From: Acaryochloris marina MBIC11017
GTDB lineage: Bacteria; Cyanobacteriota; Cyanobacteriia; Thermosynechococcales; Thermosynechococcaceae
Direction of reading: 5' to 3'
Assembly (NCBI RefSeq): GCF_000018105.1
Contig: NC_009925.1
Location: 4,110,001 to 4,142,000, forward strand
DNA length: 32,000 nucleotides
In this document: piece by piece, positions 7,399 to 23,684 of the stretch
How positions within the stretch are numbered: the first letter of the stretch is position 1
Layout: every line of letters starts with the position of its first letter
Position numbers and translations under genes: made by a program
The notes under the pieces: model-generated
What the model saw: only the letters and a program-made list of their open reading frames with translations
Told to the model about the DNA's origin: nothing
Databases searched by the model: none

Positions 7399-7912
7399 AT
7401 CAAGAAATGCAGAGGGCTTGGACTTTTATTGTAAAAGGGGAGTGTCCCCCATTTATAGATATCTGGGATCAGGTGCTGATGGGATGGCACCGAGATGAAG
7501 TGAATCCCTTAAGATCACTGAGATTTTTTTGTTCAAACGGAAAAATGATTTTTTTGGCGATGATCTGGGAATGATCTGTATTAGCCCTTCCCCAATGTAA
7601 ATGATTCAACACTCCCAAAAATATGAGGTTAGAATCATTTTTATAAACTTCCAAATCGACCTGATGACATTTTGGCACTGTCCTAGTTCTCCTATTTCTT
7701 GAGTTTCCCGAAAAGAAAGATGGAGAATTTATTCTTGCTGTTAAGTCCGGTATTATCACGATTAGTGAAAAATCGTAAAATCAGGCATGTATAGAAGAAT
7801 ATAAGCGTAAAATCGCTTGTAAATTCTTGAATCTGGCGACCGTCTTGCCTTGACTATCCCCATTTCATAAATTCTCGTTTTCTCGCTGTTACTGATACCT
7901 GCCAGAACGCTT

Positions 7913-12671: not shown

Positions 12672-14900
12672 ATGGATTTATTTGAGCAGCATCGTCAACA
12701 GCTTTTAGAAACGGAGGCTCCCCTGGCTGCACGGTTACGTCCCCGCACTTTGGATGAGTTTGTGGGCCAGGATGAGATTGTTGGCCCAGGACGATTATTG
12801 CGGCGTGCAATCCAGGCGGATCAACTTTCTTCTCTGATTTTCTATGGCCCTCCGGGCACGGGCAAAACCACCCTGGCCCAGATTATTGCCAATACCACCC
12901 AAGCCCATTTTCTGGCCCTGAATGCGGTCTTAGCTGGCATCAAAGATATTCGCTCATCCGTGGATGAAGCCCAGGACCGACGGGGGCAATATGGTCAACG
13001 CACGATTTTGTTTGTGGATGAAGTGCATCGGTTCAATAAAGCCCAGCAAGATGCCTTGCTGCCCTGGGTGGAGAATGGCACGGTGATTTTAATTGGGGCG
13101 ACCACCGAAAATCCCTATTTTGAGGTCAACAAAGCCCTGGTGAGCCGATCTCGAATTTTTCAGTTGCGATCCCTGATGCCAGACGACCTTCGGCAGGTGC
13201 TAGAGCGGGCCTTGCAGGATAAATATTTTGGCTATGGTGATACGGCCATTGAGTTGGAAGGAGCCGCAACGGAGCACCTGATTAATGTGGCGAATGGGGA
13301 TGCCAGAGCGTTGCTGAATGCTTTAGAGCTGGCGATTGAAACCACCGAGCCCGATGACCAGGGTGTGATTCCCATTACCTTGGCTGTCGCGGAAGCCTCT
13401 ATCCAACGGCGGGCAGTTCTCTATGACAAAGAGGGTGATGCCCATTTTGATACGATCAGCGCCTTTATCAAAAGTATGCGGGGGTCAGACCCCGATGCGG
13501 CCCTTTACTGGTTAGCCCGTATGGTCTATGCCGGAGAAGATCCGCGCTTTATCTTTCGTCGGATGATCATTTTAGCCAGTGAGGATGTGGGGTTGGCGGA
13601 TCCGCAAGCCGTCGGTGTGGTGATGGCTTGTGCTCAAGCCTTTGATCGCATTGGGTTACCTGAGGGGCAATATCCTTTGGCCCAGGCAGCCCTTTATTTA
13701 TCGACTGCTCCCAAGTCCAATAGCGCTTTGGCCTATTTCGATGCCTTGGCCTCGGTTGAGAAGGAACGGGAGGGGGATGTTCCTAATCCCCTTAGGGATA
13801 AAAGTCGTGACAAACATGCCTTTGGCCATGGCGCTAACTATAAATATCCCCATGCTTATCGCGATCACTGGGTTGCCCAACAATATTTACCGGACAGTCT
13901 TCAAGGACAGGTCTTTTACCAACCGTCCGATCAAGGAGCTGAAGCGGCGATTCAAACCCAGATTGCGCGTCAGCGGGAAGCCCAACTCTCTGGAATTTCG
14001 GAGACGAGTACCCAAGAGACGGTCAGTTATGGCCCGAAAGATTCGAAGCGGGAACGGTGGTTACAGCGCACTATGAGTCAAACGGGCGATCATGCGGCTT
14101 GGGTACGCGATCGCATTTTCAGTTTCACTCAAATTCAACGTCATCATGTGGTTCTGGAGGTCTGCAGCCAAACGGGGCTACTCACCTGGGAAGCGTTACG
14201 ACGGACTCCGGAAGGCAGTGTCTATACCCACGTTTCCTCAGATAAAGTCGCTCAGACCCTGGAAGCGCAAGTGAAGGCCCTTTCAGCCTTGCAACGGCCT
14301 ATTTGTGTCGCAGGGTCGAGTTCTGACCTTAAAACTCTGATCTATGACCATACACCCGATCTGCAGTTTGATTGGATTCTAGGTCGGAATACCTTTGCGA
14401 ATCAGATGCATCAACTGGATCGGCCAGCCGCTGAAAACCTGGCCCAACAGCTGATCAGCCTTCTGAGGCCGGAGGGGCAGATCGTTCTAGCGGAAACGAT
14501 TCCCAAATATGGGCAACGGATCTGTGACTTGGTGAAGGCAGAGGATGTAGGTCAGGCGTTGTATCAGCGTTGGCAAACGGCTGAAGCCGCCTTATATCAA
14601 GGTGATACGGGCGATACGCAACTCACTTGGGATGAATCTGATCTACAAACTGCATTTGCTGATCAACCGATCACAATAGACTTAGAACAAACTGACATGA
14701 GCCTATATGTCACTCCTAAGTTGATTGAACGGTGGTTTGCGACAAGTGGTGATCGCCTTTCTTATGGAAAGCGTCTAGGGCAGCATTGTTCAGCGACAGA
14801 TGTGAAACAGATTCAAGCACTGTTGACTCAGAAGTTATTGCACCAAACCATTCAGTGGCAAACTACTCTTGCATTTGTCCATGTCCGCTGTGCTAAATAA
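12672..14900 (+). CDS. rarA: RarA/MgsA-type AAA+ ATPase fused to a C-terminal methyltransferase-fold-like domain of about 270 aa (742 aa in total)
   Basis: Walker [10 protein letters not shown], Walker [12 protein letters not shown], and the MgsA C-terminal region ([23 protein letters not shown]...). The extra C-terminal domain has degenerate SAM-MTase-like motifs: VLEVCSQTG (about 14144-14176), [10 protein letters not shown] and [16 protein letters not shown] precedes the ATG at 12672. Confidence 0.85.
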
Positions 14901-14930
14901 GTACAGCAAATGATACTGATCTTGGCACCC

Positions 14931-15761
14931 TTACAACTGGCTACATTTTTTAACTGCTTTGTTAAGGTCATAATCATCAGGGTTAGCTGCTAGTAATTCT
15001 TCCAGATGCACCAGATATTGGGGCTGTGGAAATTCTACGGCAGCTTCAATCACTAGAACATCGACGGATGGTAGTGCTAATTCCTTGAGCACTACAGGGA
15101 TAACGCGGGTATCTTGGCGTTTAGCAAGGCCTATAACCGCCTCTCCTCGGATTTCATCATCAGGATCCGATAAACCTTGAAACAGAACCTCGCGAACTTG
15201 GGGAGAATCTGCATCACTTAAGTTGCCCAAACCAAACAATGCCCAATTGCGCACATCATAGCCATCGTCCTGAGCTAATCGACACATCATTGCGACTGCA
15301 AGCTCAGAGCGATCGCACTGAGGACCGCCTGAAGCATAGGCCACTGAGAAACGGACATCTGCAGAATCGTGATTGGCAAATGCCATCAGTTCACTGCTTT
15401 CCCATAAGAAATCATAGGATGCATGGTGACCCAAAGCATTGATAGCACTGCAAAGAACTTCTGTTTCAGGATCGTGGAGCAGTGACAACAGAATTGGCAG
15501 TGCAGCGTCGCCAAAAGGATAGGGTGAGTGGCGATCTGCACATCCAAGTTGTGATAAGACGGCAGCCCCCAATGCTCTCATACAGGATTCAGAGCTTTTA
15601 CACCATTCCACAGCAGTATCAAAAATCTGAGGGTCTGAACGGAGATGAAGAGCATAAAGAATATCCCCATACAGATCACTTTCATCATCGACCGAACGAG
15701 CGCATTGTTCTGCTTGAGAAAGTAGTTGGTCTGTCGGTAAGGTTTTGAGAGAATCGTTCAT
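14931..15761 (-). CDS. HEAT-repeat protein (276 aa), YibA-like
   Basis: Repeated HEAT units (LLSLLHDPETEVLCSAINALG; DSADVRFSVAYA; DGYDVRNWALFGLGNL; GLSDPDDEIRGEAVIGLAKRQDTRVIPVVLKEL). From memory, the C-terminal half is collinear with E. coli YibA (DVRNWAAFA...EEVRIEAIIGL...R.DKRV). This is unverified. Confidence 0.75.
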   Translation of the reverse strand: MNDSLKTLPTDQLLSQAEQCARSVDDESDLYGDILYALHLRSDPQIFDTAVEWCKSSESCMRALGAAVLSQLGCADRHSPYPFGDAALPILLSLLHDPETEVLCSAINALGHHASYDFLWESSELMAFANHDSADVRFSVAYASGGPQCDRSELAVAMMCRLAQDDGYDVRNWALFGLGNLSDADSPQVREVLFQGLSDPDDEIRGEAVIGLAKRQDTRVIPVVLKELALPSVDVLVIEAAVEFPQPQYLVHLEELLAANPDDYDLNKAVKKCSQL

Positions 15762-15790
15762 TAGATCAAGATTTTTTGATTGAGATAATA

Positions 15791-15798
15791 CCTACAGA
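15791..15798. repeat. 8-bp target-site duplication CCTACAGA, left copy, of the IS4-family element
   Basis: An identical octamer lies at 18638-18645, immediately outside the perfect 19-bp terminal inverted repeats. Confidence 0.85.
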
Positions 15799-15822
15799 TC
15801 AATGGCACTGACTTAAGCTCAA

Positions 15823-16033
15823 TCAAACAGCTAGCTTAGCTTTGAGAGCAGAGCGAGGTTGTCGCATTCGCGGGAAAGATTTGGGTCTGCGTTTGACGAC
15901 TCTCGGTTCGTGCCGATTCGGTCGAGAGGGTAATAGATCGGCTGCCATGGTCTCAAGTAGATGAGTAAACAACCGCTTTCTGGTCGCACGGTTGGCTGTC
16001 GCCAACAAAGCAAGCATCTGATTGAAGTGTTGT
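15823..16033 (-). pseudogene. IS4-family transposase, C-terminal fragment
   Basis: It encodes ...FNQMLALLATANRATRKRLFTHLLETMAADLLPSRPNRHEPRVVKRRPKSFPRMRQPRSALKAKLAV. The RPxRxEPRxVKRRPK tail is typical of IS4-group transposases. It is exactly in frame with the 17388-18544 fragment once 16034-17387 is removed. Confidence 0.85.
16027..16033. repeat. Direct repeat GTGTTGT, left copy, flanking the IS256-family element (target-site duplication)
   Basis: An identical heptamer lies at 17381-17387, directly abutting the other IS end. IS256-type elements usually give 8-9 bp, so the boundary may be off by 1 nt. Confidence 0.7.
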
Positions 16034-17380
16034 GGGACTGTTCAGAGTTTTGTGTAAGCGGTCTAGGATCCAAACACATCAGGAGACCGTACGATGTCTA
16101 GAAAGAAAAAAGCTCCCAATCGAGTCGATGAACTGTTAGATGAACTCATCGGAGAGAACCCTCAACCGGAAGATATTCTGGGCGAATCAGGACTGCTTAA
16201 ACGACTCAGCAAACGCCTAGTGGAACGAGCCCTTGCAGGTGAATTGACTCATCACCTGCAGCAATCCTCCAACGATCAGTCAGGTGATGAGAATTCTAAT
16301 GGCCCCAGAAATAGTCGCAATGGTTACTCGAAAAAGACCGTCCAGTCTGAACAAGGAGAGATGGACCTATCGATTCCTCGTGACCGTTGCGGCGAGTTTG
16401 AGCCTGTCCTGGTGCCTAAAGGCCAGCGACGCATCGCAGGGCTCGATGAGAAAATCATCGCCTTATATGCTCGGGGCATGACCACCCGTGATATTCGAGC
16501 CCAATTGGTGGAGCTGTATGGGGCCAATATCTCTGAAGCTCTGATTAGTGACGTCACCAATAGCGTCATGGAAGAGGTCAAAGACTGGCGTTCAAGGCCG
16601 CTGGATGAGGTGTATCCGATTGTCTATCTTGATGCGCTGTATGTGAACATCAAAGTCAATGGTCAAGTCAGCAAGCGAGCTGTCTATGTCGCTTTGGCAG
16701 TGACTGTGGAGGGCAACAAGGAACTGTTGGGATTATGGATAGGAGCCGCTGAACGAGAGGGAGCAAAATTCTGGCTTTCGGTGCTCACAGACCTTAAAAA
16801 TCGAGGAACTCAGGATATCTTGATTGCTTGCTGTGATGGACTCAAAGGTTTTCCTCAAGCGATTGAGTCGGTCTACCCTCAGACCCAGGTGCAGGTTTGT
16901 ATTGTCCATCTTATTCGTAATAGCCTTCGCCATGTGCCGTGGAAGGAAAGTCGAGCCGTAGCTGCAGACCTCAAGCCCATTTACCAAGCGGCCACTTTGG
17001 AAGAGTCTGAGGCTGCGTTGGATGCATTTGCCCATAAATGGGACGAGACGTATCCTGGCATTAGCCAAATCTGGATACGACATTGGGATAATGTTGCCCC
17101 GTTGTTTCAATACCCAATGGCCATCCGTAAGGTTATCTACACCACCAATGCCATTGAGTCGCTCAACCGCTCACTGAGAAAGGTGATTAAGACCAAAGCG
17201 GTTTTCCCTAATGAAGAGTCTGTCTACAAATTGATGTTTCTAGCGATGAGGAATATTTCGAAGCGATGGACCAGACCAATTCTGAATTGGAAGGCGGCGC
17301 TGTCCCATTTTGCTATTCTGTTCCCAACACGATTCAACTATTGAATACACTGCTGCTTACACAAAAATCTAAACACTCTC
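16034..17380 (+). mobile_element. IS256-family insertion sequence (about 1347 bp), apparently intact
   Basis: Imperfect terminal inverted repeats match at 23 of 28 positions: GGGACTGTTCAGAGTTTTGTGTAAGCGG at 16034-16061 against the reverse complement of 17353-17380. There is a single full-length transposase ORF and a flanking 7-bp direct repeat. Confidence 0.85.
16094..17344 (+). CDS. IS256-family (Mutator-type) DDE transposase, 416 aa
   Basis: Typical family blocks: LLDELIGENPQPEDILGESGLLKRL, RNGYSKKTV, VPKGQRR, IIALYARGMTTRDI, YPIVYLDALYV, QVCIVHLIRNSL and IYTTNAIESLNRSLRKVIKT. AGGAGA SD at 16081-16086. Confidence 0.93.
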   Translation: MSRKKKAPNRVDELLDELIGENPQPEDILGESGLLKRLSKRLVERALAGELTHHLQQSSNDQSGDENSNGPRNSRNGYSKKTVQSEQGEMDLSIPRDRCGEFEPVLVPKGQRRIAGLDEKIIALYARGMTTRDIRAQLVELYGANISEALISDVTNSVMEEVKDWRSRPLDEVYPIVYLDALYVNIKVNGQVSKRAVYVALAVTVEGNKELLGLWIGAAEREGAKFWLSVLTDLKNRGTQDILIACCDGLKGFPQAIESVYPQTQVQVCIVHLIRNSLRHVPWKESRAVAADLKPIYQAATLEESEAALDAFAHKWDETYPGISQIWIRHWDNVAPLFQYPMAIRKVIYTTNAIESLNRSLRKVIKTKAVFPNEESVYKLMFLAMRNISKRWTRPILNWKAALSHFAILFPTRFNY

Positions 17381-18544
17381 GTGTTGTCGTGCTCCTTGCA
17401 CAGACAGTTGAGTTCTAGCATTATCTGCTAGCGGTGCCGCAAGTTCCATGAGACTTCTGAGTAGGTTATAGCCCAACAAATGTACCCAAATGTCCTTGCG
17501 CACCATATCCGGAGTTTTGGCACTGAGCATCTCCATTTTTAAGGTGGTTTTGAGATGGCGCAGATTGACTTCCGCCACTGGCCAACGCCAGCCATACAAG
17601 CGAGTCAGTTGCCCAGCGCTGTAGCGTTGAGCATCCAGCAGCGTCGTCACCACAATAATGTGCTGGTCGCGAAAGCCCTTAAGGGATAAGCGCAAACACA
17701 CCTCTCTAACGACCAATGTTTGAGGAATCAGGGCAAAATCTTGCTCACTCATGTGCTCAGGCCGTTGGGCTGGCTTATGCCATGTCACCTGATGATCACC
17801 AATGCCATGCTTGTTGCCTTTGCGGAAATCAGTCTTGCGAGCATGATGTTTACGCAACACTCCATCAGCCCTGTGTTGTTGAATGATGGCTAGATCAACA
17901 TAGCTGCCATAAGCTTGGTCCGCCATGACCACATCACCGACCTCAAGGTCTTGATAGAGCAAACGACTCATGACAATTTCACTGGTGTCCCAGGAGGCAA
18001 TACAAGCTGACGCCACTGCACCGGTAACCAAACAGAAGAACACTACCAAGCGAGCGATGGGAAAACCACAGCCTGCTGTTTGATTGCCATGTTGTGGATA
18101 TGATGCTTGGTTGGCCGCACTATCAGCCATCAACACGGTGGTTCCGTCGTAGACCTTGACGGGCCGACCACACCAGAGGTGCTCTGGGGAGAGGGGTTGC
18201 GCTAAGCACTCAGCGCTTTCGGGAATTAAACGTTGCAACAGTGACTCTGGAAAGCGACTTCTGGCTTTGCTGTAGGCTCCGGTATCAGATGAGGGCGGTT
18301 GGATGCCAGCCGCTGTGAGCCAAGTCGTGATGCATTTGACTGTGTTACGAAGGCTTTTATCGGCTGATAGCACTTGGTAAAGCATGGCCCACAGCGTAAC
18401 GATGGGGCTATATATCCGGTTGCGATAGGAGAATGCTTCTTCTTTCAGGAGTTCCTCTAACCTTGAGGCTAGAAGGATATCTGTCCACGGTAAACCCAGG
18501 CTTTGGGAAAATTGCTGCTTGAGAATTTCGGCTGACTCAGACAT
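17369..18544 (-). pseudogene. IS4-family DDE transposase, N-terminal fragment, truncated by the IS256-family insertion
   Basis: DDE_Tnp_1-like sequence (VYDGTTVLMADS...VVMADQAYGSY...RWPVAEVNLRHLKTTLKMEMLSAKTPDMVRKDIWVHLLGYNLLR). The last three codons and the stop (ESV*) are read from the IS256-family terminus. The likely ATG is at 18544; the track start at 18595 is TTG. Confidence 0.88.
17381..17387. repeat. Direct repeat GTGTTGT, right copy, flanking the IS256-family element
   Basis: Identical to 16027-16033. Confidence 0.7.
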
Positions 18545-18570
18545 AGTGAAAGGCAGAAGTTTATGGCGTG

Positions 18571-18601
18571 CAAGTCTTGATCCTATATCTATCAAGACTT
18601 G
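18571..18601 (-). promoter_or_regulatory. 11-bp-stem hairpin inside the IS4-family end, upstream of the transposase start
   Basis: CAAGTCTTGAT (18571-18581) and ATCAAGACTTG (18591-18601) are perfect complements separated by a 9-nt loop. The position fits a read-through or translation attenuator, as described for several IS families. Function is inferred only. Confidence 0.35.
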
Positions 18602-18637
18602 TAGCCTTTTCCTGACTTCTTAAGTCAGTGCCATTGA

Positions 18638-18645
18638 CCTACAGA
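18638..18645. repeat. 8-bp target-site duplication CCTACAGA, right copy, of the IS4-family element
   Basis: Identical to 15791-15798. It contains the TAG stop codon of the 144-aa ORF. Confidence 0.85.
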
Positions 18646-19073
18646 TAGGGCTTGATTTCCCATAGCCTGATCTCGGCGGCTGCTCCATCCACAAGAATGC
18701 GTGTTTGTTGCCCAGCAATCCCAAACTCAAACTGGAGACCATCATCATATCCACGATTATTTGTGAGCTGCCACACAGAGAAAAGCTGCATCCCTAGAAT
18801 TGCTTTCCACGGTTTTTGCTGCGATATATCTATCCTGAAATGAGGTGCAAACTGGAAACCGTTTGAAATATAAACTTCATCAGTCTCACCCTCACAGACT
18901 ATGCCGACCTGGTAGTCCCCAAAGAATAAGACTAGGGCTTCCAAATTTTCTCCCCCCAGCAAATCATTAGAGGTATAAGAACTTTTGGCTTTGCAGCGTT
19001 CGACGCTTTGCAAGATAAGTGGTACGTCACCCTCTAGCAAATGTACTAAGCCCTCATAACTGGAACAGAACAT
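18639..19073 (-). CDS. Hypothetical protein (144 aa), no recognised family
   Basis: ATG start and a clean ORF with a beta-rich, acidic composition and no signal peptide or TM segment. Before the IS insertion it lay 30 nt upstream of the 276-aa HEAT-repeat gene on the same strand. Confidence 0.6.
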   Translation of the reverse strand: MFCSSYEGLVHLLEGDVPLILQSVERCKAKSSYTSNDLLGGENLEALVLFFGDYQVGIVCEGETDEVYISNGFQFAPHFRIDISQQKPWKAILGMQLFSVWQLTNNRGYDDGLQFEFGIAGQQTRILVDGAAAEIRLWEIKPYL

Positions 19074-19258
19074 ATGAGTCTTCTTTCAGAAGGCAGACCA
19101 TACAATCTCAGTATGTTTGGGATGACAGATGAATGGAATAGAGCAATAAGGGATATTGACATCCCGCAGGTGATATTTCAGGTATCAGCAAGATGAGGGT
19201 TTTCCGGTGCAAGACAAGTCAACACTGTATTAGACAAGTGATATTCTTCTGAATTTAC

Positions 19259-19807
19259 TCAACTGGAATTCATCCTTGTGTGGACGGCTGCAGCCAGTGC
19301 AGTGACATTACAAACACCATATTGCTCAAGCCCAACCTCTACTAACTCAATGAGGATACGCAACACATCAAGCCGAACCTCGATGCACTCATCTTGTAAA
19401 GCTTCTAGCAATCGAGAATCAAAGGTCTGTAAATCAATATGGATATAACGAAGCGCGCGAGCTGCATTAGCCCGAATAGTGGGCGAACTATCCTGTAGCA
19501 ATTTGAATAGCTGAGGTTCAATGATTGCAGGTGCATGATTGTATCGCAGTCCCCAGGCCGCCAAATCTGCCTGATCACCTTGAGTCTTCTCCAGTAGCAC
19601 CAAGAGCTGGTTTACACCCTCTGGTATGACATGACCCATCAGCTGGGAACAGCTCTCGCGTACCTGGTTTTCTTCCTCGTCATCACACAAAGTTATGAAT
19701 AAGGTTTCAACCGCGTCTTCGCCCATGTCCCAAAGCAAATCATAGGCATCGTCGTGACGGGCTTGCGATCGCAAATCCGCAATCAATTCGTTTACTAATT
19801 TCACCAC
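19259..19807 (-). CDS. HEAT/ARM-like repeat protein (182 aa)
   Basis: Helical repeat signature (LLQDSSPTIRANAARALRYI; LQDECIEVRLDVLRILIEL) and an acidic patch DDEEENQ. GTG start 25 nt after the stop of the 278-aa ORF. It contains one HIP1 site (19765-19772). Confidence 0.6.
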   Translation of the reverse strand: MVKLVNELIADLRSQARHDDAYDLLWDMGEDAVETLFITLCDDEEENQVRESCSQLMGHVIPEGVNQLLVLLEKTQGDQADLAAWGLRYNHAPAIIEPQLFKLLQDSSPTIRANAARALRYIHIDLQTFDSRLLEALQDECIEVRLDVLRILIELVEVGLEQYGVCNVTALAAAVHTRMNSS

Positions 19808-19832
19808 CAGACTATTGATGTCTTCTGAATGT

Positions 19833-20669
19833 TTACGAGAGATTGGGCGTAAACCAAACAGGCTTTAGCCCCTTATCCAGTAAAGCTTTTTCATTGGGCT
19901 GAGGTTTAAAAGGGATGTGACCCGCTTGATGCAGTTGGGTCGCTAGATTTTGGGCATAGCGATGGGCAAAAGCTTCTTTATCTTGCGAAGGCTGAGAGTC
20001 AAACTTTTGGCGCAGCCGCTCATCTTCAGCATCGCTAGTGGTATCAAGACTGGGTAGAACAACGCTGTGCCTCCAATCCACATAATGCCCAAGTTCATGG
20101 AAAAGGGTTCGAAAGAGGATGGTATTGCGAACCGACTCATCAGTTCGGTGGATCGTGTAATCACGTCGTCCTTTTTCGATCCGATGGCCATCAGCTTCCA
20201 GTCGAGTGAGTTCATCGCGAGCGTCTGGCCCTAGGGAGAGAGACCACCGCAAGGGGGTATTGAGATTATGGGCTTCGATACAAATTGCAGTCCCTGAATG
20301 TGGTCTAGGTGTCGCATAGTACAGGAAACGGCCCCAGACAGGATTGAGTTGATCTTGTTTGCGCGTCGGTTGACGAAAAATAATCAGCTCCAAGCCCTCC
20401 AGGTCAGACTGGGGAACGTATTCTAAAACAGACATCACATCTGCGACAGTACAGGGATAAAAACACTCAGGGCGCGGAGGCTCCACTAGAAATGTCAGCT
20501 TACATTCGCCAATCTTTGCTTGAATCGCAATAGGCTTGTGAAGTACTTCCCAAAACACCCGATCACCTGGCCAGGATTTTGGAATCACCAGCTGATTATT
20601 TTGTCCCTGACCTTGCTTTGAAGTACCAATATTGCGATTGCGACGGGTAGGATTCCAGCCTTTGCGCAT
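19833..20669 (-). CDS. Putative zincin-like metallopeptidase (278 aa) with an HExxHxxDxxH motif
   Basis: ATG start. HELGHYVDWRH is encoded at 20067-20099 (H191, E192, H195, H201). A predicted beta/alpha core lies upstream (LELIIFRQP...VWGRFLYYA...AICIEAHNL). The N-terminus is basic and Q/N-rich. No signal peptide. Confidence 0.7.
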   Translation of the reverse strand: MRKGWNPTRRNRNIGTSKQGQGQNNQLVIPKSWPGDRVFWEVLHKPIAIQAKIGECKLTFLVEPPRPECFYPCTVADVMSVLEYVPQSDLEGLELIIFRQPTRKQDQLNPVWGRFLYYATPRPHSGTAICIEAHNLNTPLRWSLSLGPDARDELTRLEADGHRIEKGRRDYTIHRTDESVRNTILFRTLFHELGHYVDWRHSVVLPSLDTTSDAEDERLRQKFDSQPSQDKEAFAHRYAQNLATQLHQAGHIPFKPQPNEKALLDKGLKPVWFTPNLS

Positions 20670-21244
20670 GTCCAGTTCCTAGAGATGCGTCAATGCTAGC
20701 CCACCTGCCAAGGCAGCTCAGTGATCGCTGTCCCATCGAGATCTCTGCAATCGTTAAAGCCAAATGCATTGGAGCCAAAATTTTTCCCAATGAATAGACC
20801 GGGAAGCTATATCTTTTTGGGGCGTGGTTTTGTCGGTTGCGATCGCACGGACAATGCAGAATGCCTGATAGGTCTCCATAGCAAAAATAAAGGCATGACT
20901 GGCCGAACAAAGCCACCTGGAAAAATTTTTTCGCCTTGATGTTCGATCTCGATTTTGTTTGGGCAACCTGAGTCTAATCAAGCTACTGCTAGAATTTGTA
21001 CTATCTGGTTTTAGCTTGACTTAAATCAGAAATAATCATCAAAAAAGTCCCTACCCCCTCTCTCTGTATGAGTTAGGGGGTATTTATTAAGGCAACACCA
21101 CCCATTGGACTGCAGGCACCTCCCGTTGGGTTAAAGCTTTATGTTTCAGGTTTAAGGGGGATATCCATAAGATACATGGACTAAAGGTATGGTCGCAGTT
21201 TTCTCATCTAGCGTCTGCAGAAATTGATCAATCCTACTGACACT

Positions 21245-21272
21245 AAAAAAGCCCCCGATTATTCGGGGGCTT
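21245..21272 (-). terminator. Rho-independent terminator of psbD
   Basis: GCCCCCG (21251-21257) and CGGGGGC (21264-21270) form a 7-bp GC stem with a 6-nt loop. On the minus strand it is followed by a T-run (the A6 at 21245-21250). It begins 32 nt downstream of the psbD stop. Confidence 0.75.
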
Positions 21273-21303
21273 TCCATCAAACTTTATCGTTTGAAGTTAG
21301 AGT

Positions 21304-22359
21304 CTACAGAGCGTTACCGCGAGGTAGAACTTCTTCAGGGAAGATGAAGTTTTCATGGATTTGGTCTTGGGGTGCCATCCAAGCGCGCAGACCTTCATTC
21401 AAGAGAATGTTCTTGGTGTAGAAGGTTTCGAACTCAGGGTCTTCAGCAGCCCGGATTTCCTGGCTAACGAAGTCATAAGCACGCATGTTGAGAGCGATAC
21501 CCACGAGGCCAATGGCAGAAGCCCATAGACCAGTCACAGGAACGAACAACATGAAAAAGTGCAACCAACGCTTGTTGGAAAAGGCAATCCCGAAAATCTG
21601 AGACCAGAATCGGTTAGCAGTGACCATGGAGTAGGTCTCTTCTGCTTGGGTCGGAGTGAACGCAGCAAATGTATTGGCGTCTTGACCGTCTTCAAACAAG
21701 GTGTTCTCAACAGTGGCTCCGTGAATGGCGCACAACAGCGCACCACCCAAAATACCTGCAACACCCATCATGTGGAAGGGGTTGAGGGTTAGGTTGTGGA
21801 AACCTTGAGCAAATAACAAGAATCGGAAGATGCTTGTTACACCCCAGCTAGGTGCAAAGAACCAGCTGGATTGGCCCAAAGGATACATCAAAAAGACGGA
21901 AACATACACGGCGATAGGACCGCTGAAGGCAACTGCGTTGTAAGGACGCACGCCGACTAGACGGGCAATCTCGAATTGACGCAGCATGAAGCCGATCAAG
22001 CCGAAGACACCATGTAATGTGGTGAAGTTCCACAATCCACCCAGCTGACACCAGCGGGTGAAGTCACCTTGAGCTTCGGGTCCCCAAAGTAGAAGTAGGG
22101 AGTGGCCGAGGCTGTCGGCGGGAGTGGATACAGCAACGGTCAAGAAGTTAGCCCCTTCTAGGTAGGAGCTAGCAAGACCGTGGGTGTACCAGGAAGTTAC
22201 GAAAGTTGTGCCGGTAAACCATCCCCCGATGGATAGAAACGCACAGGGGAAAAGTAGGATACCTGACCAACCAATAAAGACGAACCGATCACGCTTAAGC
22301 CAGTCGTCGAGGACGTCAAACCATCCTCGCTCCTGGGCGCGTCCGACTGCTATGGTCAT
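21304..22359 (-). CDS. psbD: Photosystem II reaction-centre protein D2
   Basis: Full-length 351-aa D2 ([28 protein letters not shown]...[33 protein letters not shown]...[10 protein letters not shown]). GGAG lies upstream of the ATG. No overlapping psbC follows, so this is a monocistronic copy. Confidence 0.97.
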
Positions 22360-22622
22360 GGATAGATCTCCAGTTTATTTATAAATCGAAAAATGATTGC
22401 AGGAAAAATAACAGATGGTCCTGAATCGGTGTAGATATGATTAACCATAAAGTAAAGTCAACAAAAATTCACGATACTTTATGATTTCTTTCACATATCC
22501 TAATTATATGTAGAAGTCTATCGTGCTGCAGCTACCGCTGGAAAGTCTAGCCAAATATGAGGGTTAGACGGTTAATCCATGAAAACGAGCAATGATAGGC
22601 AGTGCCTGAATCCTGAGAAAGC

Positions 22623-23684
22623 TTAAGATTTGTCGGTTTCAGTCGTCAAGAAACTTTGCGGTCGGTCTAAGAGGGCGGTTATTGCATTAACAGCGGTTTG
22701 AGCATTGCCCGTTAGGAATGCTGCATCTACTGTATCCGGTGTATCGGTGCGCCGATGATAGTGGGGATTGCGCAGATGGGCGGTATCGGTGAGCATCACG
22801 GCTCCTATCCCTTCAAACCAAAATGGCGTATGGTCACTGCGCAGGATGACAGGGGTTAATAGACCTTTAAAAGGAATGGAGACAGGGACTAACGCCGGTA
22901 AGTTTGGCTGATGATGCTCGCTAAAGGCATTCAGTAATGGTAGGTGCTCTGTATCGCCTGCGATCGCAAGAAAGTCTCCTTTATCACTGGGTAGCTTCAC
23001 CTTGAATTCTCCAGGAACCTGCTGGCAGCCCGGTGTCGAACAGGAGTAGCCCAGCATTTCCAAAATCACGACGCCGTCTAAATTTTTGAGATTTTCGGGG
23101 CGTTGGGCATAGGCATAGCTACCCACCAGTCCGGCTTCTTCTTGATCAAATAGAACAATGCGCAGGGGCCGTATCGTTTTGCGATCGCCCAGCAGTCTCG
23201 CCACTTCCAAAGCCACCACCACTCCAGTGGCATTATCATCTGACCCAGGAGACCCTCGGACCGAATCATAATGAGCGCCCACTAGTAAGACCCCTGCATT
23301 AGGGGCTATACCTGGACGTTCAGCCACAAGATTCACCCCTGTTTCAAAAGGCTGTTCTGTTACGGTCCAGCCAGATGCCGAGAGGGTTTGGGCCATAAAC
23401 GCTCTCGTTTTCTTTAACTCGGCTGTAGTGTAGCGCTCAAAGTTCAGAGCATTGAGATCTGCCATTAACCGATCGCCATTAACCAGGGGGGGCGGCTCAG
23501 CGGTGACAGGTAGCGGAGCAGTCGTTGGAGACGGAGCATCGGGCGGCGATGCTGCGGGCGTCGCCTCTGGTGATGGAGAGACGGGAGGAGATTGAGCGAC
23601 AGGCCGGGGAGACTGGCAGGACATAAAGACCACAAACAGACATGCGATCGCACTTAAGATCCAAGCTTTCCGACTTTTGAACAT
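22623..23684 (-). CDS. M28-family aminopeptidase, probable lipoprotein
   Basis: M28 zinc-site contexts (LLVGAHYDSV, GSDDNATGVVVALEVARLL, LFDQEEAGLVGS, DHTPF). Start at ATG 23684 gives MFKSRKAWILSAIACLFVVFMSCQ (lipobox), followed by a Pro/Ser-rich linker. The track start at 23747 is TTG. Confidence 0.85.
   Translation of the reverse strand: MFKSRKAWILSAIACLFVVFMSCQSPRPVAQSPPVSPSPEATPAASPPDAPSPTTAPLPVTAEPPPLVNGDRLMADLNALNFERYTTAELKKTRAFMAQTLSASGWTVTEQPFETGVNLVAERPGIAPNAGVLLVGAHYDSVRGSPGSDDNATGVVVALEVARLLGDRKTIRPLRIVLFDQEEAGLVGSYAYAQRPENLKNLDGVVILEMLGYSCSTPGCQQVPGEFKVKLPSDKGDFLAIAGDTEHLPLLNAFSEHHQPNLPALVPVSIPFKGLLTPVILRSDHTPFWFEGIGAVMLTDTAHLRNPHYHRRTDTPDTVDAAFLTGNAQTAVNAITALLDRPQSFLTTETDKS

What the first reader, a model, noticed from the sequence alone, without database searches (positions are those of the whole stretch)
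14931..20669. Uncharacterised four-gene cassette: HExxH zincin-like protein, two HEAT-repeat proteins and a small protein. Candidate toxin/immunity or protease-regulator system
Four same-strand genes with no assignable housekeeping role lie between the rarA fusion and psbD.

Gene order on the minus strand:
- 278-aa HExxH protein (20669->19833)
- 25-nt gap
- 182-aa HEAT-like protein (19807->19259)
- 185-nt gap
- 144-aa protein (19073->18639)
- after removing the IS nest in silico, a 30-nt gap
- 276-aa HEAT-repeat protein (15761->14931)

The ancestral unit was therefore a compact module of about 3 kb. I see no signal peptides or TM segments in any of the four.

The 276-aa protein looks, from memory, like E. 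coli YibA. YibA is the HEAT-repeat protein encoded just downstream of rhsA and is annotated as a putative immunity protein. No Rhs, PAAR, LXG or other delivery domain is present here, so this is not a classical polymorphic-toxin locus. Two alternatives are a cytoplasmic metalloprotease with HEAT-repeat partners, or an orphan immunity island.

HIP1 sites at 19765 and 20839 argue that the cassette is long resident rather than a recent import.
Basis: partly seen in the sequence, partly recalled or inferred. Interest (0 to 1): 0.7.

Follow-up and report, generated by a model that had tools for sequence, protein, structure and literature searches.

The report
Orphan immunity genes beside lone zincin
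The four genes are real and kept together in Acaryochloris marina, but they look like a composite: a widespread stand-alone zinc-protease-like gene of unknown role next to two or three "orphan" immunity genes of the kind bacteria keep to survive competitors' toxins. That is a known kind of locus and not a new system.

Summary
All four minus-strand ORFs, the nested IS and the 30-nt ancestral gap are exactly as described, and an IS-free copy with the same flanks exists in A. marina CP064923.

- The 276-aa protein (P4) is a YibA-family (PRK09687) HEAT protein. YibA is the reported RhsA immunity protein of E. coli.
- The 144-aa protein (P3) is DUF6334. In four independent sequences this family directly follows one ~80-aa toxin tail that is attached to different pre-toxin junctions (Rhs-like, Hint). 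That is the signature of a polymorphic-toxin immunity protein. No such toxin is in the window.
- The 182-aa protein (P2) is a generic HEAT protein.
- P3–P4, and probably P2, therefore form a small heterogeneous polyimmunity (orphan immunity) locus.

The 278-aa protein (P1) belongs to a large unannotated family: 692 hits and 334 species-level genome loci across many phyla. It has invariant HExGH and E232 and an invariant disordered N-terminal [RK]RNRNIGT motif. It shows only weak anthrax-LF/Tox-MPTase3/SprT-like zincin affinity and has no solved-structure match.

In 79 of 80 loci from other species P1 has no conserved neighbour, so the four genes are not a conserved system. One actinobacterial locus couples P1 to DUF6334 through an ATGA overlap, and this remains unexplained.

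The parts
19833..20669 (-). P1, 278 aa. Stand-alone zincin-like (HExGH...E) protein of a widespread family with no curated model.
   Evidence: ORF. No Pfam or NCBIfam hit. 692 homologues and 334 genome loci. AF2 pLDDT 88, pTM 0.82. Recurrent weak ATLF, SprT-like, Tox-MPTase3 and M91 hits across family members. omega 0.14 between two A. marina strains.
20595..20657 (-). Codons 5-25 of P1: the near-invariant N-terminal motif W-N-P-x-[RK]-R-N-R-N-I-G-T-x-K-x-G-x-G-x-x-N, in a predicted disordered tail.
   Evidence: Conserved in at least 90% of 118 sequences. pLDDT 43-54 over residues 1-40. All synonymous codons are used, so selection is on the peptide.
20085..20099 (-). HELGH (residues 191-195), the putative zinc-binding and catalytic motif of P1.
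   Evidence: H191, E192, G194 and H195 are invariant in 118 sequences. The motif lies in the long helix 177-208 of the model.
19974..19976 (-). E232 of P1, the candidate third zinc ligand (gluzincin-type).
   Evidence: Invariant in 118 sequences. It lies at the start of helix 228-248. The ATLF profile alignment spans the HExxH-to-E region.
19259..19807 (-). P2, 182 aa. Generic HEAT-like repeat protein, C-terminally shorter than its 216-aa orthologue.
   Evidence: Pfam HEAT, HEAT_EZ and HEAT_2. 79% identical to the CP064923 copy, which starts 4 nt after P1. Only designed alphaRep HEAT scaffolds match in the PDB. No relatives in plasmids or in any P1 or DUF6334 locus.
18639..19073 (-). P3, 144 aa. 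DUF6334 family. Inferred orphan immunity protein of a polymorphic-toxin system.
   Evidence: Pfam PF19860, E 4e-32. Family members directly follow a shared toxin C-terminal tail in L095, L097, L100 and P0210 and follow Imm7 in Hahella. AF2 pLDDT 86, mostly beta, no PDB match. No cognate toxin in the window.
15799..18637 (.). Outer IS4-family element inserted between P3 and P4. Its target-site duplication ACCTACAGA lies at 15790-15798 and 18638-18646.
   Evidence: Terminal inverted repeats and direct repeat. DDE_Tnp_1 transposase 17369-18595, whose remainder at 15823-16017 is split off by the inner IS.
16034..17380 (+). Inner IS256-family element nested in the IS4 transposase gene.
   Evidence: Transposase_mut, E 2e-117, full length. 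Inverted repeats 16036-16059 and 17355-17378. Flanking GTGTTGT direct repeat read.
14931..15761 (-). P4, 276 aa. YibA-family (PRK09687) HEAT-repeat protein. Inferred orphan Imm-HEAT immunity protein.
   Evidence: NCBIfam equivalog, 323 bits against a cut-off of 275, full length. PDB 1OYZ (YibA) E 1.2e-17. E. coli yibA lies 20 nt after rhsA. YibA is reported to neutralise RhsA-CT (PMC3150448). omega 0.16.
15309..15316 (+). HIP1 site (GCGATCGC) inside P4.
19765..19772 (+). HIP1 site inside P2.
20839..20846 (+). HIP1 site in the psbD-P1 intergenic region.

Best explanation
The locus is a composite of two things, not one four-part machine.

(1) P3 and P4, and probably P2, form a small heterogeneous polyimmunity (orphan immunity) locus. 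These are cytoplasmic binding proteins kept without a cognate toxin. They would bind and block toxin domains injected by competing bacteria through Rhs-type or other polymorphic toxins. P4 belongs to the YibA / Imm-HEAT family. P3 belongs to DUF6334, which elsewhere is the gene immediately downstream of a specific ~80-aa toxin tail.

(2) P1 is an independent gene. It belongs to a widespread, sporadically distributed family of cytoplasmic zincin-like metallopeptidases (invariant HExGH plus E232) that carry an invariant, disordered, basic N-terminal motif ([RK]RNRNIGT).

What is shown and what is inferred:
- Shown: family memberships, gene order, strain conservation, purifying selection, the toxin-DUF6334 pairing in other loci, and the lack of conserved P1 partners.
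- Inferred: that P3 and P4 neutralise incoming toxins in A. marina; that P1 is an active protease; and, as speculation, that its N-terminal motif is a pseudo-substrate, a processing site or a tether.

The IS nest separates P4 from P1-P3 in this strain and probably uncouples its transcription.
For: P4:
- YibA equivalog above its cut-off and a match to the 1OYZ structure.
- In E. coli, yibA sits 20 nt after rhsA and was reported to neutralise RhsA-CT (PMC3150448).
- A PRK09687 protein occurs in a Salmonella Paratyphi C T6SS immunity islet (PMC7400221).
- Imm-HEAT is a recognised immunity class that includes cyanobacteria (PMC3482391).

P3:
- Pfam DUF6334.
- In L097, two tandem genes share 78% identity over their first 85 aa, ending in DPINxxDPDGR, and then diverge. 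The first is followed by DUF6334 with an overlapping start, the second by an unrelated 146-aa gene.
- The same toxin tail (67-85% identical) precedes DUF6334 in L095 and in L100. In L100 it follows a Hint-type '...FHTYF...VHNC' junction. It is read through into DUF6334 in P0210.
- In Hahella, DUF6334 follows Imm7. L086 is a long same-strand array of small genes that also includes HEAT and LRR genes.

Locus form:
- Same strand, 30-nt P3-P4 gap, no toxin in the window.
- All four genes are present in two A. marina genomes and several read-set assemblies. P2-P4 are absent beside P1 in Acaryochloris sp. IP29b.
- P3-P4 form a block of 92-95% nucleotide identity between strains, against 81-88% for P1, P2 and the adjacent rarA end. 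dS is 0.17 and 0.32 for P3 and P4, against 0.58-0.71 for P1 and the flanks.

P1 independence:
- In 80 loci from other species there are no P2 or P4 relatives, no conserved neighbour cluster and no enriched Pfam family downstream. Annotated neighbourhoods vary.

P1 as a zincin:
- Invariant H191, E192, H195 and E232 and a confident model.
- Recurrent weak hits to ATLF, SprT-like, Tox-MPTase3 and M91, all mapping to residues 169-246.
- The weak top Foldseek hits are M1 aminopeptidases, anthrax LF and a phage M34 peptidase.

All four genes are under purifying selection, omega 0.14-0.33.
Against: - In one distant lineage (Sporichthyaceae, L051) a DUF6334 gene starts on the P1 stop codon with an ATGA overlap. 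DUF6334 is rare, 829 of 1.84e9 representative proteins, so a chance expectation is roughly 1e-4 for about 200 neighbour positions. This argues for some real P1-DUF6334 link.
- P2 lies 4-25 nt after P1 and shares P1's divergence level, not that of P3-P4. P2 may belong with P1 and not with the immunity block.
- P2 has no specific family assignment.
- The closest plasmid or chromid relatives of P4 (Ralstonia, Nostoc, Methylosinus, Sphingomonas) have no adjacent toxin and sit in mixed regulatory or stress contexts. An immunity role is therefore not established for every YibA-like protein.
- The direct toxin pairing was seen for a DUF6334 subgroup only 22-24% identical to P3.
- No experiment supports any of this in Acaryochloris.
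Confidence: 0.6

Rival explanations
1. All four genes form one toxin/immunity-like or protease/inhibitor system. P1 is a cytoplasmic LF-like protease toxin (or abortive-infection effector). P2, P3 and P4 are its inhibitors or regulators, co-transcribed with it.
For: - Tight same-strand spacing, conserved in A. marina strains.
- P1's weak affinities are all to toxin- or effector-type zincins: ATLF, Tox-MPTase3, M91.
- P1-DUF6334 ATGA coupling in an actinobacterium.
- Purifying selection on all four genes.
Against: - 79 of 80 P1 loci from other species lack any DUF6334, P2 or P4 relative and share no neighbour family.
- Acaryochloris sp. IP29b has P1 alone. A toxin that usually lacks an antidote is unlikely.
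- DUF6334 pairs with an unrelated all-helical toxin tail elsewhere.
- P3-P4 have a different divergence history from P1.
Confidence: 0.12
2. There are two pairs. P1 and P2 form a lineage-specific protease plus HEAT adaptor or inhibitor pair. Only P3-P4 is the orphan immunity module.
For: - The P1-P2 gap is 4 nt in CP064923 and 25 nt here.
- P1 and P2 share about 81-88% inter-strain nucleotide identity, whereas P3-P4 form a distinct 92-95% block.
- There is a 116-185-nt gap with a hairpin between P2 and P3.
Against: - No P2-like or HEAT gene follows P1 in any of 80 other loci.
- P2 is C-terminally truncated in this strain without loss of the locus.
- P2 has the second-highest omega (0.26) of the four genes; P3 is higher at 0.33.
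Confidence: 0.15
3. The HEAT proteins are phycobiliprotein lyase or NblB-type housekeeping proteins of the cyanobacterium, unrelated to conflict systems.
For: - P4 has one marginal HEAT_PBS hit, 23.0 bits against a cut-off of 20.9.
- PRK09687 is named 'putative lyase'.
- The host has phycobiliproteins (general knowledge).
Against: - P4 matches the enterobacterial YibA equivalog over its full length.
- Its nearest annotated relatives are on plasmids or chromids of Ralstonia, Sphingomonas, Methylosinus and E. coli, which lack phycobilisomes.
- No cpc or nbl genes are adjacent.
- P2 has no HEAT_PBS hit.
Confidence: 0.04
4. The cassette is decaying accessory DNA with no current function in this strain.
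For: - An IS nest was tolerated between P3 and P4.
- P2 is truncated relative to CP064923.
- No toxin is present.
Against: - All four ORFs are intact.
- omega is 0.14-0.33 between strains.
- The IS inserted in an intergenic spacer and duplicated the P3 stop, leaving both genes whole.
- HIP1 density is normal.
Confidence: 0.06

Closest known systems
E. coli YibA (PRK09687; PDB 1OYZ), the ORF downstream of rhsA; the 'Imm-HEAT' class of Zhang et al. 2012
   Same: P4 matches the equivalog model over its full length above the cut-off. It aligns to 1OYZ over residues 21-272 and is the same size, an all-HEAT protein.
   Different: No Rhs, PAAR or other toxin gene lies upstream here; the upstream gene is DUF6334. 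Alignment identity to YibA is low (E 1.2e-17 by phmmer). Several close relatives on plasmids also lack toxins.
Heterogeneous polyimmunity loci (Zhang, de Souza, Anantharaman, Iyer, Aravind 2012, PMC3482391)
   Same: Tandem, same-strand, closely spaced genes of unrelated immunity families. No intervening toxin. Variable between related genomes.
   Different: Only two or three genes, whereas 'extended' loci have four or more. The host is a cyanobacterium, a phylum not listed for extended loci. There is no adjacent recombinase, only later IS insertions. A non-immunity zincin gene heads the string.
Pfam DUF6334 (PF19860)
   Same: P3 is a full-length member, E 4e-32.
   Different: The family has no published function; a literature search returned 0 papers. 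The immunity assignment is made here from gene context, for a subgroup 22-24% identical to P3.
Anthrax lethal factor-like (M34 / Pfam ATLF), Tox-MPTase3, NleD/M91 and SprT-like zincins
   Same: P1 has HExxH on a long helix and an invariant Glu about 37 residues downstream on the next-but-one helix. Weak profile hits from many family members map exactly there.
   Different: No hit reaches any curated threshold. Foldseek finds no significant match. P1 is a stand-alone 278-aa cytoplasmic protein with no Rhs, PVC or other trafficking region. It has a unique invariant N-terminal motif.
ImmA/IrrE (M78) metallopeptidases, including CBASS CapP. This is the name NCBI gives the identical protein.
   Same: HExxH zincin of similar size. 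A sub-threshold PADLOC CapP hit (E 0.019) over residues 173-241.
   Different: No Peptidase_M78 Pfam hit in P1, and none among the 25 most recurrent families for its 118 relatives. No adjacent HTH or XRE repressor partner and no conserved neighbour at all.

Membership tests
YibA / PRK09687 (Imm-HEAT) - P4 | Full-length match to the curated equivalog model above its cut-off | tested here: met
   323.4 bits against a cut-off of 275; residues 1-275 against profile positions 1-281 of 285.
YibA / PRK09687 (Imm-HEAT) - P4 | HEAT-repeat all-alpha protein similar to the solved YibA structure | tested here: met
   phmmer to 1OYZ_A, E 1.2e-17 over residues 21-272. Pfam HEAT_2, E 3e-26.
YibA / PRK09687 (Imm-HEAT) - P4 | Encoded immediately downstream of an Rhs or other polymorphic toxin gene | tested here: not met
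   The upstream gene is DUF6334 (ancestrally 30 nt away). There is no Rhs, PAAR or toxin ORF in the region. In E. coli K-12, yibA is 20 nt after rhsA.
YibA / PRK09687 (Imm-HEAT) - P4 | Neutralises a cognate toxin domain | not testable with these tools
   Known only from the literature for E. coli YibA (PMC3150448).
DUF6334 (PF19860) - P3 | Pfam model hit above the gathering threshold | tested here: met
   110.9 bits against 25; residues 18-143 against profile positions 4-124 of 125.
Polymorphic-toxin immunity protein - DUF6334 family | The gene lies directly 3' of a variable toxin C-terminal domain that is joined to different conserved pre-toxin regions | tested here: met
   Met for family members in L097 (Rhs-like DPxxxxDPDGR junction, overlapping start), L100 (Hint VHNC junction, 3-nt gap), L095 and P0210. 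Not met for P3 itself, which is an orphan.
Heterogeneous polyimmunity locus (Zhang et al. 2012) | Tandem same-orientation immunity genes of different families with short spacers | tested here: met
   P3 (DUF6334) and P4 (Imm-HEAT) are 30 nt apart ancestrally. P2 (HEAT) is 116-185 nt upstream.
Heterogeneous polyimmunity locus (Zhang et al. 2012) | Not interrupted by toxin genes or cassettes | tested here: met
   No toxin-tail match in the window. The only insert is the IS nest.
Heterogeneous polyimmunity locus (Zhang et al. 2012) | Content varies between related strains or species | tested here: inconclusive
   Present in two A. marina genomes. Absent downstream of P1 in Acaryochloris sp. IP29b, but that contig is not syntenic downstream.
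Heterogeneous polyimmunity locus (Zhang et al. 2012) | [quoted passage not shown] | tested here: not met
   At most three candidate immunity genes.
Zincin / gluzincin metallopeptidase - P1 | HExxH on a helix plus a downstream Glu as third zinc ligand, all conserved | tested here: met
   H191, E192, H195 and E232 are invariant in 118 sequences. Helices 177-208 and 228-248.
Zincin / gluzincin metallopeptidase - P1 | Significant match to a curated peptidase family or a solved zincin structure | tested here: not met
   Pfam and NCBIfam give 0 hits for P1. The best recurrent family-member hits have E 3.6e-4 to 0.05, below the cut-offs. Foldseek best E is 0.32 against the PDB and 0.024 against BFVD.
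ImmA/IrrE (M78) - P1 (NCBI's name) | Peptidase_M78/COG2856 domain and an adjacent HTH repressor substrate gene | tested here: not met
   No M78 hit. No conserved neighbour and no enriched HTH family downstream.
Classical polymorphic toxin locus (Rhs/CdiA/LXG etc.) | A large toxin with an N-terminal trafficking or repeat region and a variable C-terminal domain, followed by immunity | tested here: not met
   No such ORF in 13000-23000. All listed P1 homologues are 186-327 aa and carry no precomputed Pfam domain.
CpcE/CpcF/NblB phycobiliprotein-lyase HEAT proteins - P2, P4 | Multiple PBS-lyase HEAT repeats, and restriction to phycobilisome organisms or cpc/nbl neighbourhoods | tested here: not met
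   P4 has a single marginal HEAT_PBS hit and P2 has none. The closest annotated relatives are in proteobacterial plasmids. The neighbours are psbD and rarA, not cpc or nbl. No direct comparison with CpcE or NblB sequences was run.

The most novel reading that the evidence does not exclude
P1 founds a new family of self-contained cytoplasmic LF-like zincin effectors. Its invariant, disordered N-terminal [RK]RNRNIGT motif (basic residues followed by a hydrophobic one, like an LF-type cleavage site as I recall it from memory) acts as a pseudo-substrate or autoprocessing switch. In some lineages (A. marina, Sporichthyaceae) co-opted immunity-type proteins (DUF6334, HEAT) act as its dedicated inhibitors. 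This would be a previously undescribed protease-based toxin/antidote or abortive-infection module built from polymorphic-toxin parts.
Probability: 0.1. Interest if true: 0.7.

Novelty: new member of a known kind. Interest (0 to 1): 0.35.

Why it matters
If this is right, the locus is a small cyanobacterial example of orphan or poly-immunity. That kind of locus is known, but it is little documented outside Proteobacteria, Bacteroidota, Firmicutes and Actinobacteria.

Two by-products are more useful than the locus itself.

1. DUF6334 has no literature, and it can now be annotated as the immunity partner of a specific, previously undescribed ~80-aa polymorphic-toxin tail. This gives a directly testable toxin/immunity pair.

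2. The P1 family is a widespread zincin with no curated model (334 species-level genome loci) and no solved-structure match. Its invariant N-terminal linear motif is unusual for a bacterial protease and could mark a new regulatory principle.

Neither point overturns current understanding.

Tried and rejected
- Sequence and profile searches of P1 against the PDB gave only chance-level hits: a phage tail protein at E 0.64 and myroilysin at E 0.03 around HExxH.
- Foldseek of the confident P1 model against the PDB and BFVD, and of the P3 model against the PDB, gave nothing at E <= 0.001.
- PADLOC gave only sub-threshold hits, CapP E 0.019 and HEAT-ARM, so no known defence system is indicated.
- The P1 family is absent from 2.9 million viral contigs and occurs on one plasmid only, in Chondrinema. 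It is therefore neither a phage nor a typical plasmid gene.
- P3 and P2 have no plasmid relatives.
- The metagenome scan for DUF6334 returned a single short contig.
- I tested whether the 253-aa and 249-aa genes upstream of DUF6334 in L097 are distant P1 relatives. They are not (hhalign probability below 1%).
- P2 and P4 are not detectably paralogous.
- The promoter and terminator scan was at or below the chance expectation.
- I tested RNA-level conservation as the cause of the P1 N-terminal motif and rejected it, because synonymous codons vary freely.
- One literature hit for 'YibA' was a misprint for the NADAR protein YbiA and was disregarded. A 'yibA + HEAT' search was unproductive.

Full report
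**1. Checking the observation**

The ORF list for 13000-23000 reproduces all four minus-strand genes at the stated coordinates:
- P1, 20669->19833, 278 aa
- P2, 19807->19259, 182 aa, GTG start
- P3, 19073->18639, 144 aa
- P4, 15761->14931, 276 aa

HELGH occupies P1 residues 191-195.

The DNA between P3 and P4 is a nested pair of insertion sequences.
- The outer element is IS4-like, 15799-18637, with 19-nt perfect terminal inverted repeats and a 9-bp target-site duplication, ACCTACAGA.
- Its DDE transposase is split into 17369-18595 and 15823-16017 by an intact IS256-family element. That inner element carries a Mutator-type transposase at 16094-17344 (Pfam E 2e-117) and inverted repeats at 16036-16059 and 17355-17378.
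- The stop codon of P3 lies inside the duplicated 9 bp, so both genes stayed whole. Removing the IS leaves a 30-nt spacer.

A 100%-identical P1 identifies the organism as Acaryochloris marina.

A second A. marina genome (CP064923) has the IS-free arrangement, with exactly that 30-nt spacer, between the same flanking genes (psbD and the 742-aa rarA fusion). Its gene lengths are P1 278 aa, P2 216 aa, P3 144 aa and P4 276 aa.

HIP1 (GCGATCGC) occurs 16 times in the window against 0.45 expected. Sites lie at 15309 (in P4), 19765 (in P2) and 20839 (upstream of P1).

**2. What each gene is**

P4 hits the NCBIfam equivalog PRK09687 ('putative lyase', the YibA model) with 323 bits against a cut-off of 275, over its full length. 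It also matches the YibA crystal structure 1OYZ at E 1.2e-17. In E. coli K-12, yibA starts 20 nt after rhsA. Poole et al. 2011 (PMC3150448) cite earlier work showing that yibA expression neutralises the growth block caused by the RhsA C-terminus. Zhang et al. 2012 (PMC3482391) list 'Imm-HEAT' as an immunity class partnered with RHS toxins (Ntox34, Tox-REase-7) and include cyanobacteria among its taxa. A PRK09687 protein also lies beside a PAAR-like gene in a Salmonella Paratyphi C T6SS immunity islet (PMC7400221).

P2 has only generic HEAT hits and matches only designed alphaRep scaffolds in the PDB. It is not detectably paralogous to P4.

P3 is Pfam DUF6334, E 4e-32. No paper in the library mentions this family.

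P1 has no Pfam or NCBIfam hit.

**3. DUF6334 is an immunity protein**

A profile search widened the family to 23 clusters. An exhaustive search found 829 representative clusters among 1.84 billion, nearly all single-domain proteins of 130-150 aa.

The gene contexts are informative.
- L097: two tandem genes of 253 and 249 aa share 78% identity over their first 85 residues, which include a signal-like segment and end in 'RIICRNDPINxxDPDGR', reminiscent of the end of an Rhs core. They then diverge completely. The first is followed by DUF6334 with an overlapping start. The second is followed 2 nt later by an unrelated 146-aa gene.
- L100: the gene ending 3 nt before DUF6334 begins with a Hint-domain C-terminal remnant ('...FHTYFAGDSKALVHNC') and ends with the same tail as the L097 toxin.
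- L095: an 80-aa ORF with that tail overlaps the DUF6334 start.
- P0210: the tail is read through into DUF6334.
- The tails ('...AKAILDRGGNAGNVxKALGDxLxGKTVGEIANMAAxGDSAAETALKIIKQAGxKGQxY') are 67-85% identical and have no Pfam hit.

One toxin C-terminus grafted to different pre-toxin junctions, each time followed by the same small gene family, is the defining architecture of polymorphic toxin/immunity modules (PMC3482391).

Other members sit in same-strand arrays:
- after Imm7 in Hahella;
- after DUF4272 in L098;
- within a run of more than 20 small genes that includes HEAT and LRR proteins in L086.

The P3 model is confident (pLDDT 86, mostly beta) but matches no solved structure. The window contains no copy of the toxin tail, so P3 is an orphan.

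Caveat: the members seen next to the toxin are only 22-24% identical to P3. The assignment for P3 is therefore a family-level inference.

**4. P1 is an independent, widespread zincin-like protein**

P1 has 692 homologues at E <= 1e-3 and 334 confirmed loci in one-genome-per-species data. These cover Cyanobacteriota, Burkholderiales, Sphingomonadales, Gammaproteobacteria, Planctomycetota, Acidobacteriota, Actinomycetota, Spirochaetia, Bacteroidota and Myxococcota.

Residues invariant in 118 sequences include H191, E192, G194, H195, E232, R99 and W112-G113. An N-terminal stretch is at least 90% conserved. Its core across 80 loci is [RK]RNRNIGT.K.G, encoded with all synonymous codons.

The AlphaFold model is confident (pLDDT 88, pTM 0.82) except for residues 1-40, which carry the motif.

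No solved or viral predicted structure matches significantly. The weak top hits are M1 aminopeptidases, anthrax lethal factor and a phage 'M34' peptidase.

Scanning all 118 members against Pfam at E <= 1 gives recurrent sub-threshold hits: ATLF in 12 members, SprT-like in 9, Tox-MPTase3 in 8 and Peptidase_M91 in 8. These map to residues 169-246.

From memory, anthrax LF has 'HEFGHAVDDY ... NEAEFFAEAF', close to P1's 'HELGHYVDWR ... DKEAFAHRYA'. This is a lead, not a test.

P1 is thus a zincin, probably gluzincin-type, but not a member of any curated family. NCBI's label 'ImmA/IrrE' is not borne out: there is no M78 hit and no adjacent repressor gene.

**5. Are the four genes one system?**

- In the 80 best loci from other species, none has a P2 or P4 relative.
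- All-against-all clustering of neighbours finds no family shared beyond close genera.
- 132 downstream ORFs show no enriched Pfam family; the top count is GNAT in 4.
- The small ORFs that often follow P1 are not homologous to each other across genera.
- Pfam-annotated neighbourhoods differ completely.
- Acaryochloris sp. IP29b has P1 (79% identical) followed by a cytochrome P450 gene.
- Conversely, no DUF6334 or P4-relative locus carries the other cassette genes, except in A. marina.

Between the two A. marina genomes all four genes are under purifying selection, with omega of 0.14 (P1), 0.26 (P2), 0.33 (P3) and 0.16 (P4). However, P3-P4 form a block of 92-95% nucleotide identity (dS 0.17 and 0.32), whereas P1, P2 and the adjacent rarA end are 81-88% identical (dS 0.58 and 0.39 for P1 and P2, and 0.60-0.71 for the flanking M28, rarA and htrA-like genes). 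P3-P4 therefore have a separate, more recent history.

The one observation that does not fit is L051 (Sporichthyaceae). There a DUF6334 gene begins on the P1 stop codon with an ATGA overlap. DUF6334 occurs at about 4.5e-7 per representative protein, so this is unlikely to be chance. I leave it unexplained and carry it into the novel reading.

**6. Best explanation and verdict**

The string is a composite.
- P3-P4, and perhaps P2, form a small heterogeneous polyimmunity (orphan immunity) locus.
- P1 is an unrelated, autonomously functioning zincin of unknown substrate.
- P2's allegiance is uncertain. It abuts P1 and shares P1's divergence level, but no other P1 gene has such a partner.

P4's closest plasmid or chromid relatives lack toxins and sit in varied contexts. 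One follows a LysR regulator gene and precedes glyoxalase and YdeI genes in Ralstonia. Another follows rtcB-prfH in Methylosinus. The immunity role of P4 therefore rests on family membership and the E. coli precedent.

The 'four-part protease-regulator or toxin system' alternative is not supported.

The locus is a new member of a known kind. Its by-products have modest independent interest: a functional context for DUF6334, a new toxin tail, and an uncharacterised zincin family with an invariant N-terminal linear motif.

Noticed in passing
L097:6240-7001, L100:5015-5479, L095:130-372 (and protein P0210): A previously unannotated ~80-aa polymorphic-toxin C-terminal domain ('...GKTVGEIANMAAxGDSAAETALKIIKQAGxKGQxY'), 67-85% identical across loci and with no Pfam hit. 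It is grafted to Rhs-like or Hint pre-toxin junctions and is always followed by DUF6334.
   Followed up: partly
L051:6995-8262 (Sporichthyaceae MAG): A P1 homologue and a DUF6334 gene are translationally coupled: ATGA overlap, P1 stop at 7835-7837 and DUF6334 start at 7834. A further 151-aa unannotated gene overlaps the DUF6334 end. This is the only P1-DUF6334 adjacency among the 80 loci from other species.
   Followed up: partly
window 12672-14900 (+): The RarA/MgsA AAA+ protein is 742 aa, with a C-terminal extension of about 300 aa. The extension shows a weak methyltransferase-like hit (Cons_hypoth95, E 0.009, residues 477-579). The fusion is conserved in A. marina CP064923 (94% identical).
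   Followed up: no
window 15799-18637, with the inner element at about 16034-17380: Nested IS: an intact IS256-family element (flanked by a GTGTTGT direct repeat) inside the transposase gene of an IS4-family element. Read-set assemblies carrying the identical P1 end just after P3, consistent with contig breaks at this repeat.
   Followed up: yes
window 14931-15761 and 18639-19073, against L081:9609-10904: P3-P4 form a block of 92-95% nucleotide identity between two A. marina genomes, flanked by 81-88% identity on both sides. This suggests recent exchange or conversion of that block.
   Followed up: partly
window 19073-19330, against L081:9420-9625: P2 ends 27 codons earlier than in CP064923, although the downstream DNA is still homologous. 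An 11-nt indel and a conserved hairpin (window 19150-19165, GGGATGTCAATATCCC) lie in the P2-P3 spacer.
   Followed up: partly
L105:2696-6759 (Methylosinus trichosporium OB3b plasmid pOB3b2): A YibA-like HEAT gene follows rtcB, prfH and a 450-aa unannotated gene on the same strand. From general knowledge, RtcB-PrfH is a ribosome-repair module that counters ribotoxins. One P1 locus also has an RtcB gene among its two nearest downstream same-strand ORFs.
   Followed up: no
whole window: HIP1 (GCGATCGC) occurs 16 times against 0.45 expected from shuffles. None lies in the two IS elements, consistent with their recent arrival.
   Followed up: yes
L086 (ENA contig_18373, 126455-142898): A run of more than 20 small, mostly unannotated, same-strand genes around a DUF6334 gene that is 55% identical to P3. 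The run includes HEAT, LRR, PDZ, FGE-sulfatase-like and Clp_N proteins and ends near a Y2 transposase gene. It looks like an extended polyimmunity or cassette array. I did not check for attC-like repeats.
   Followed up: no
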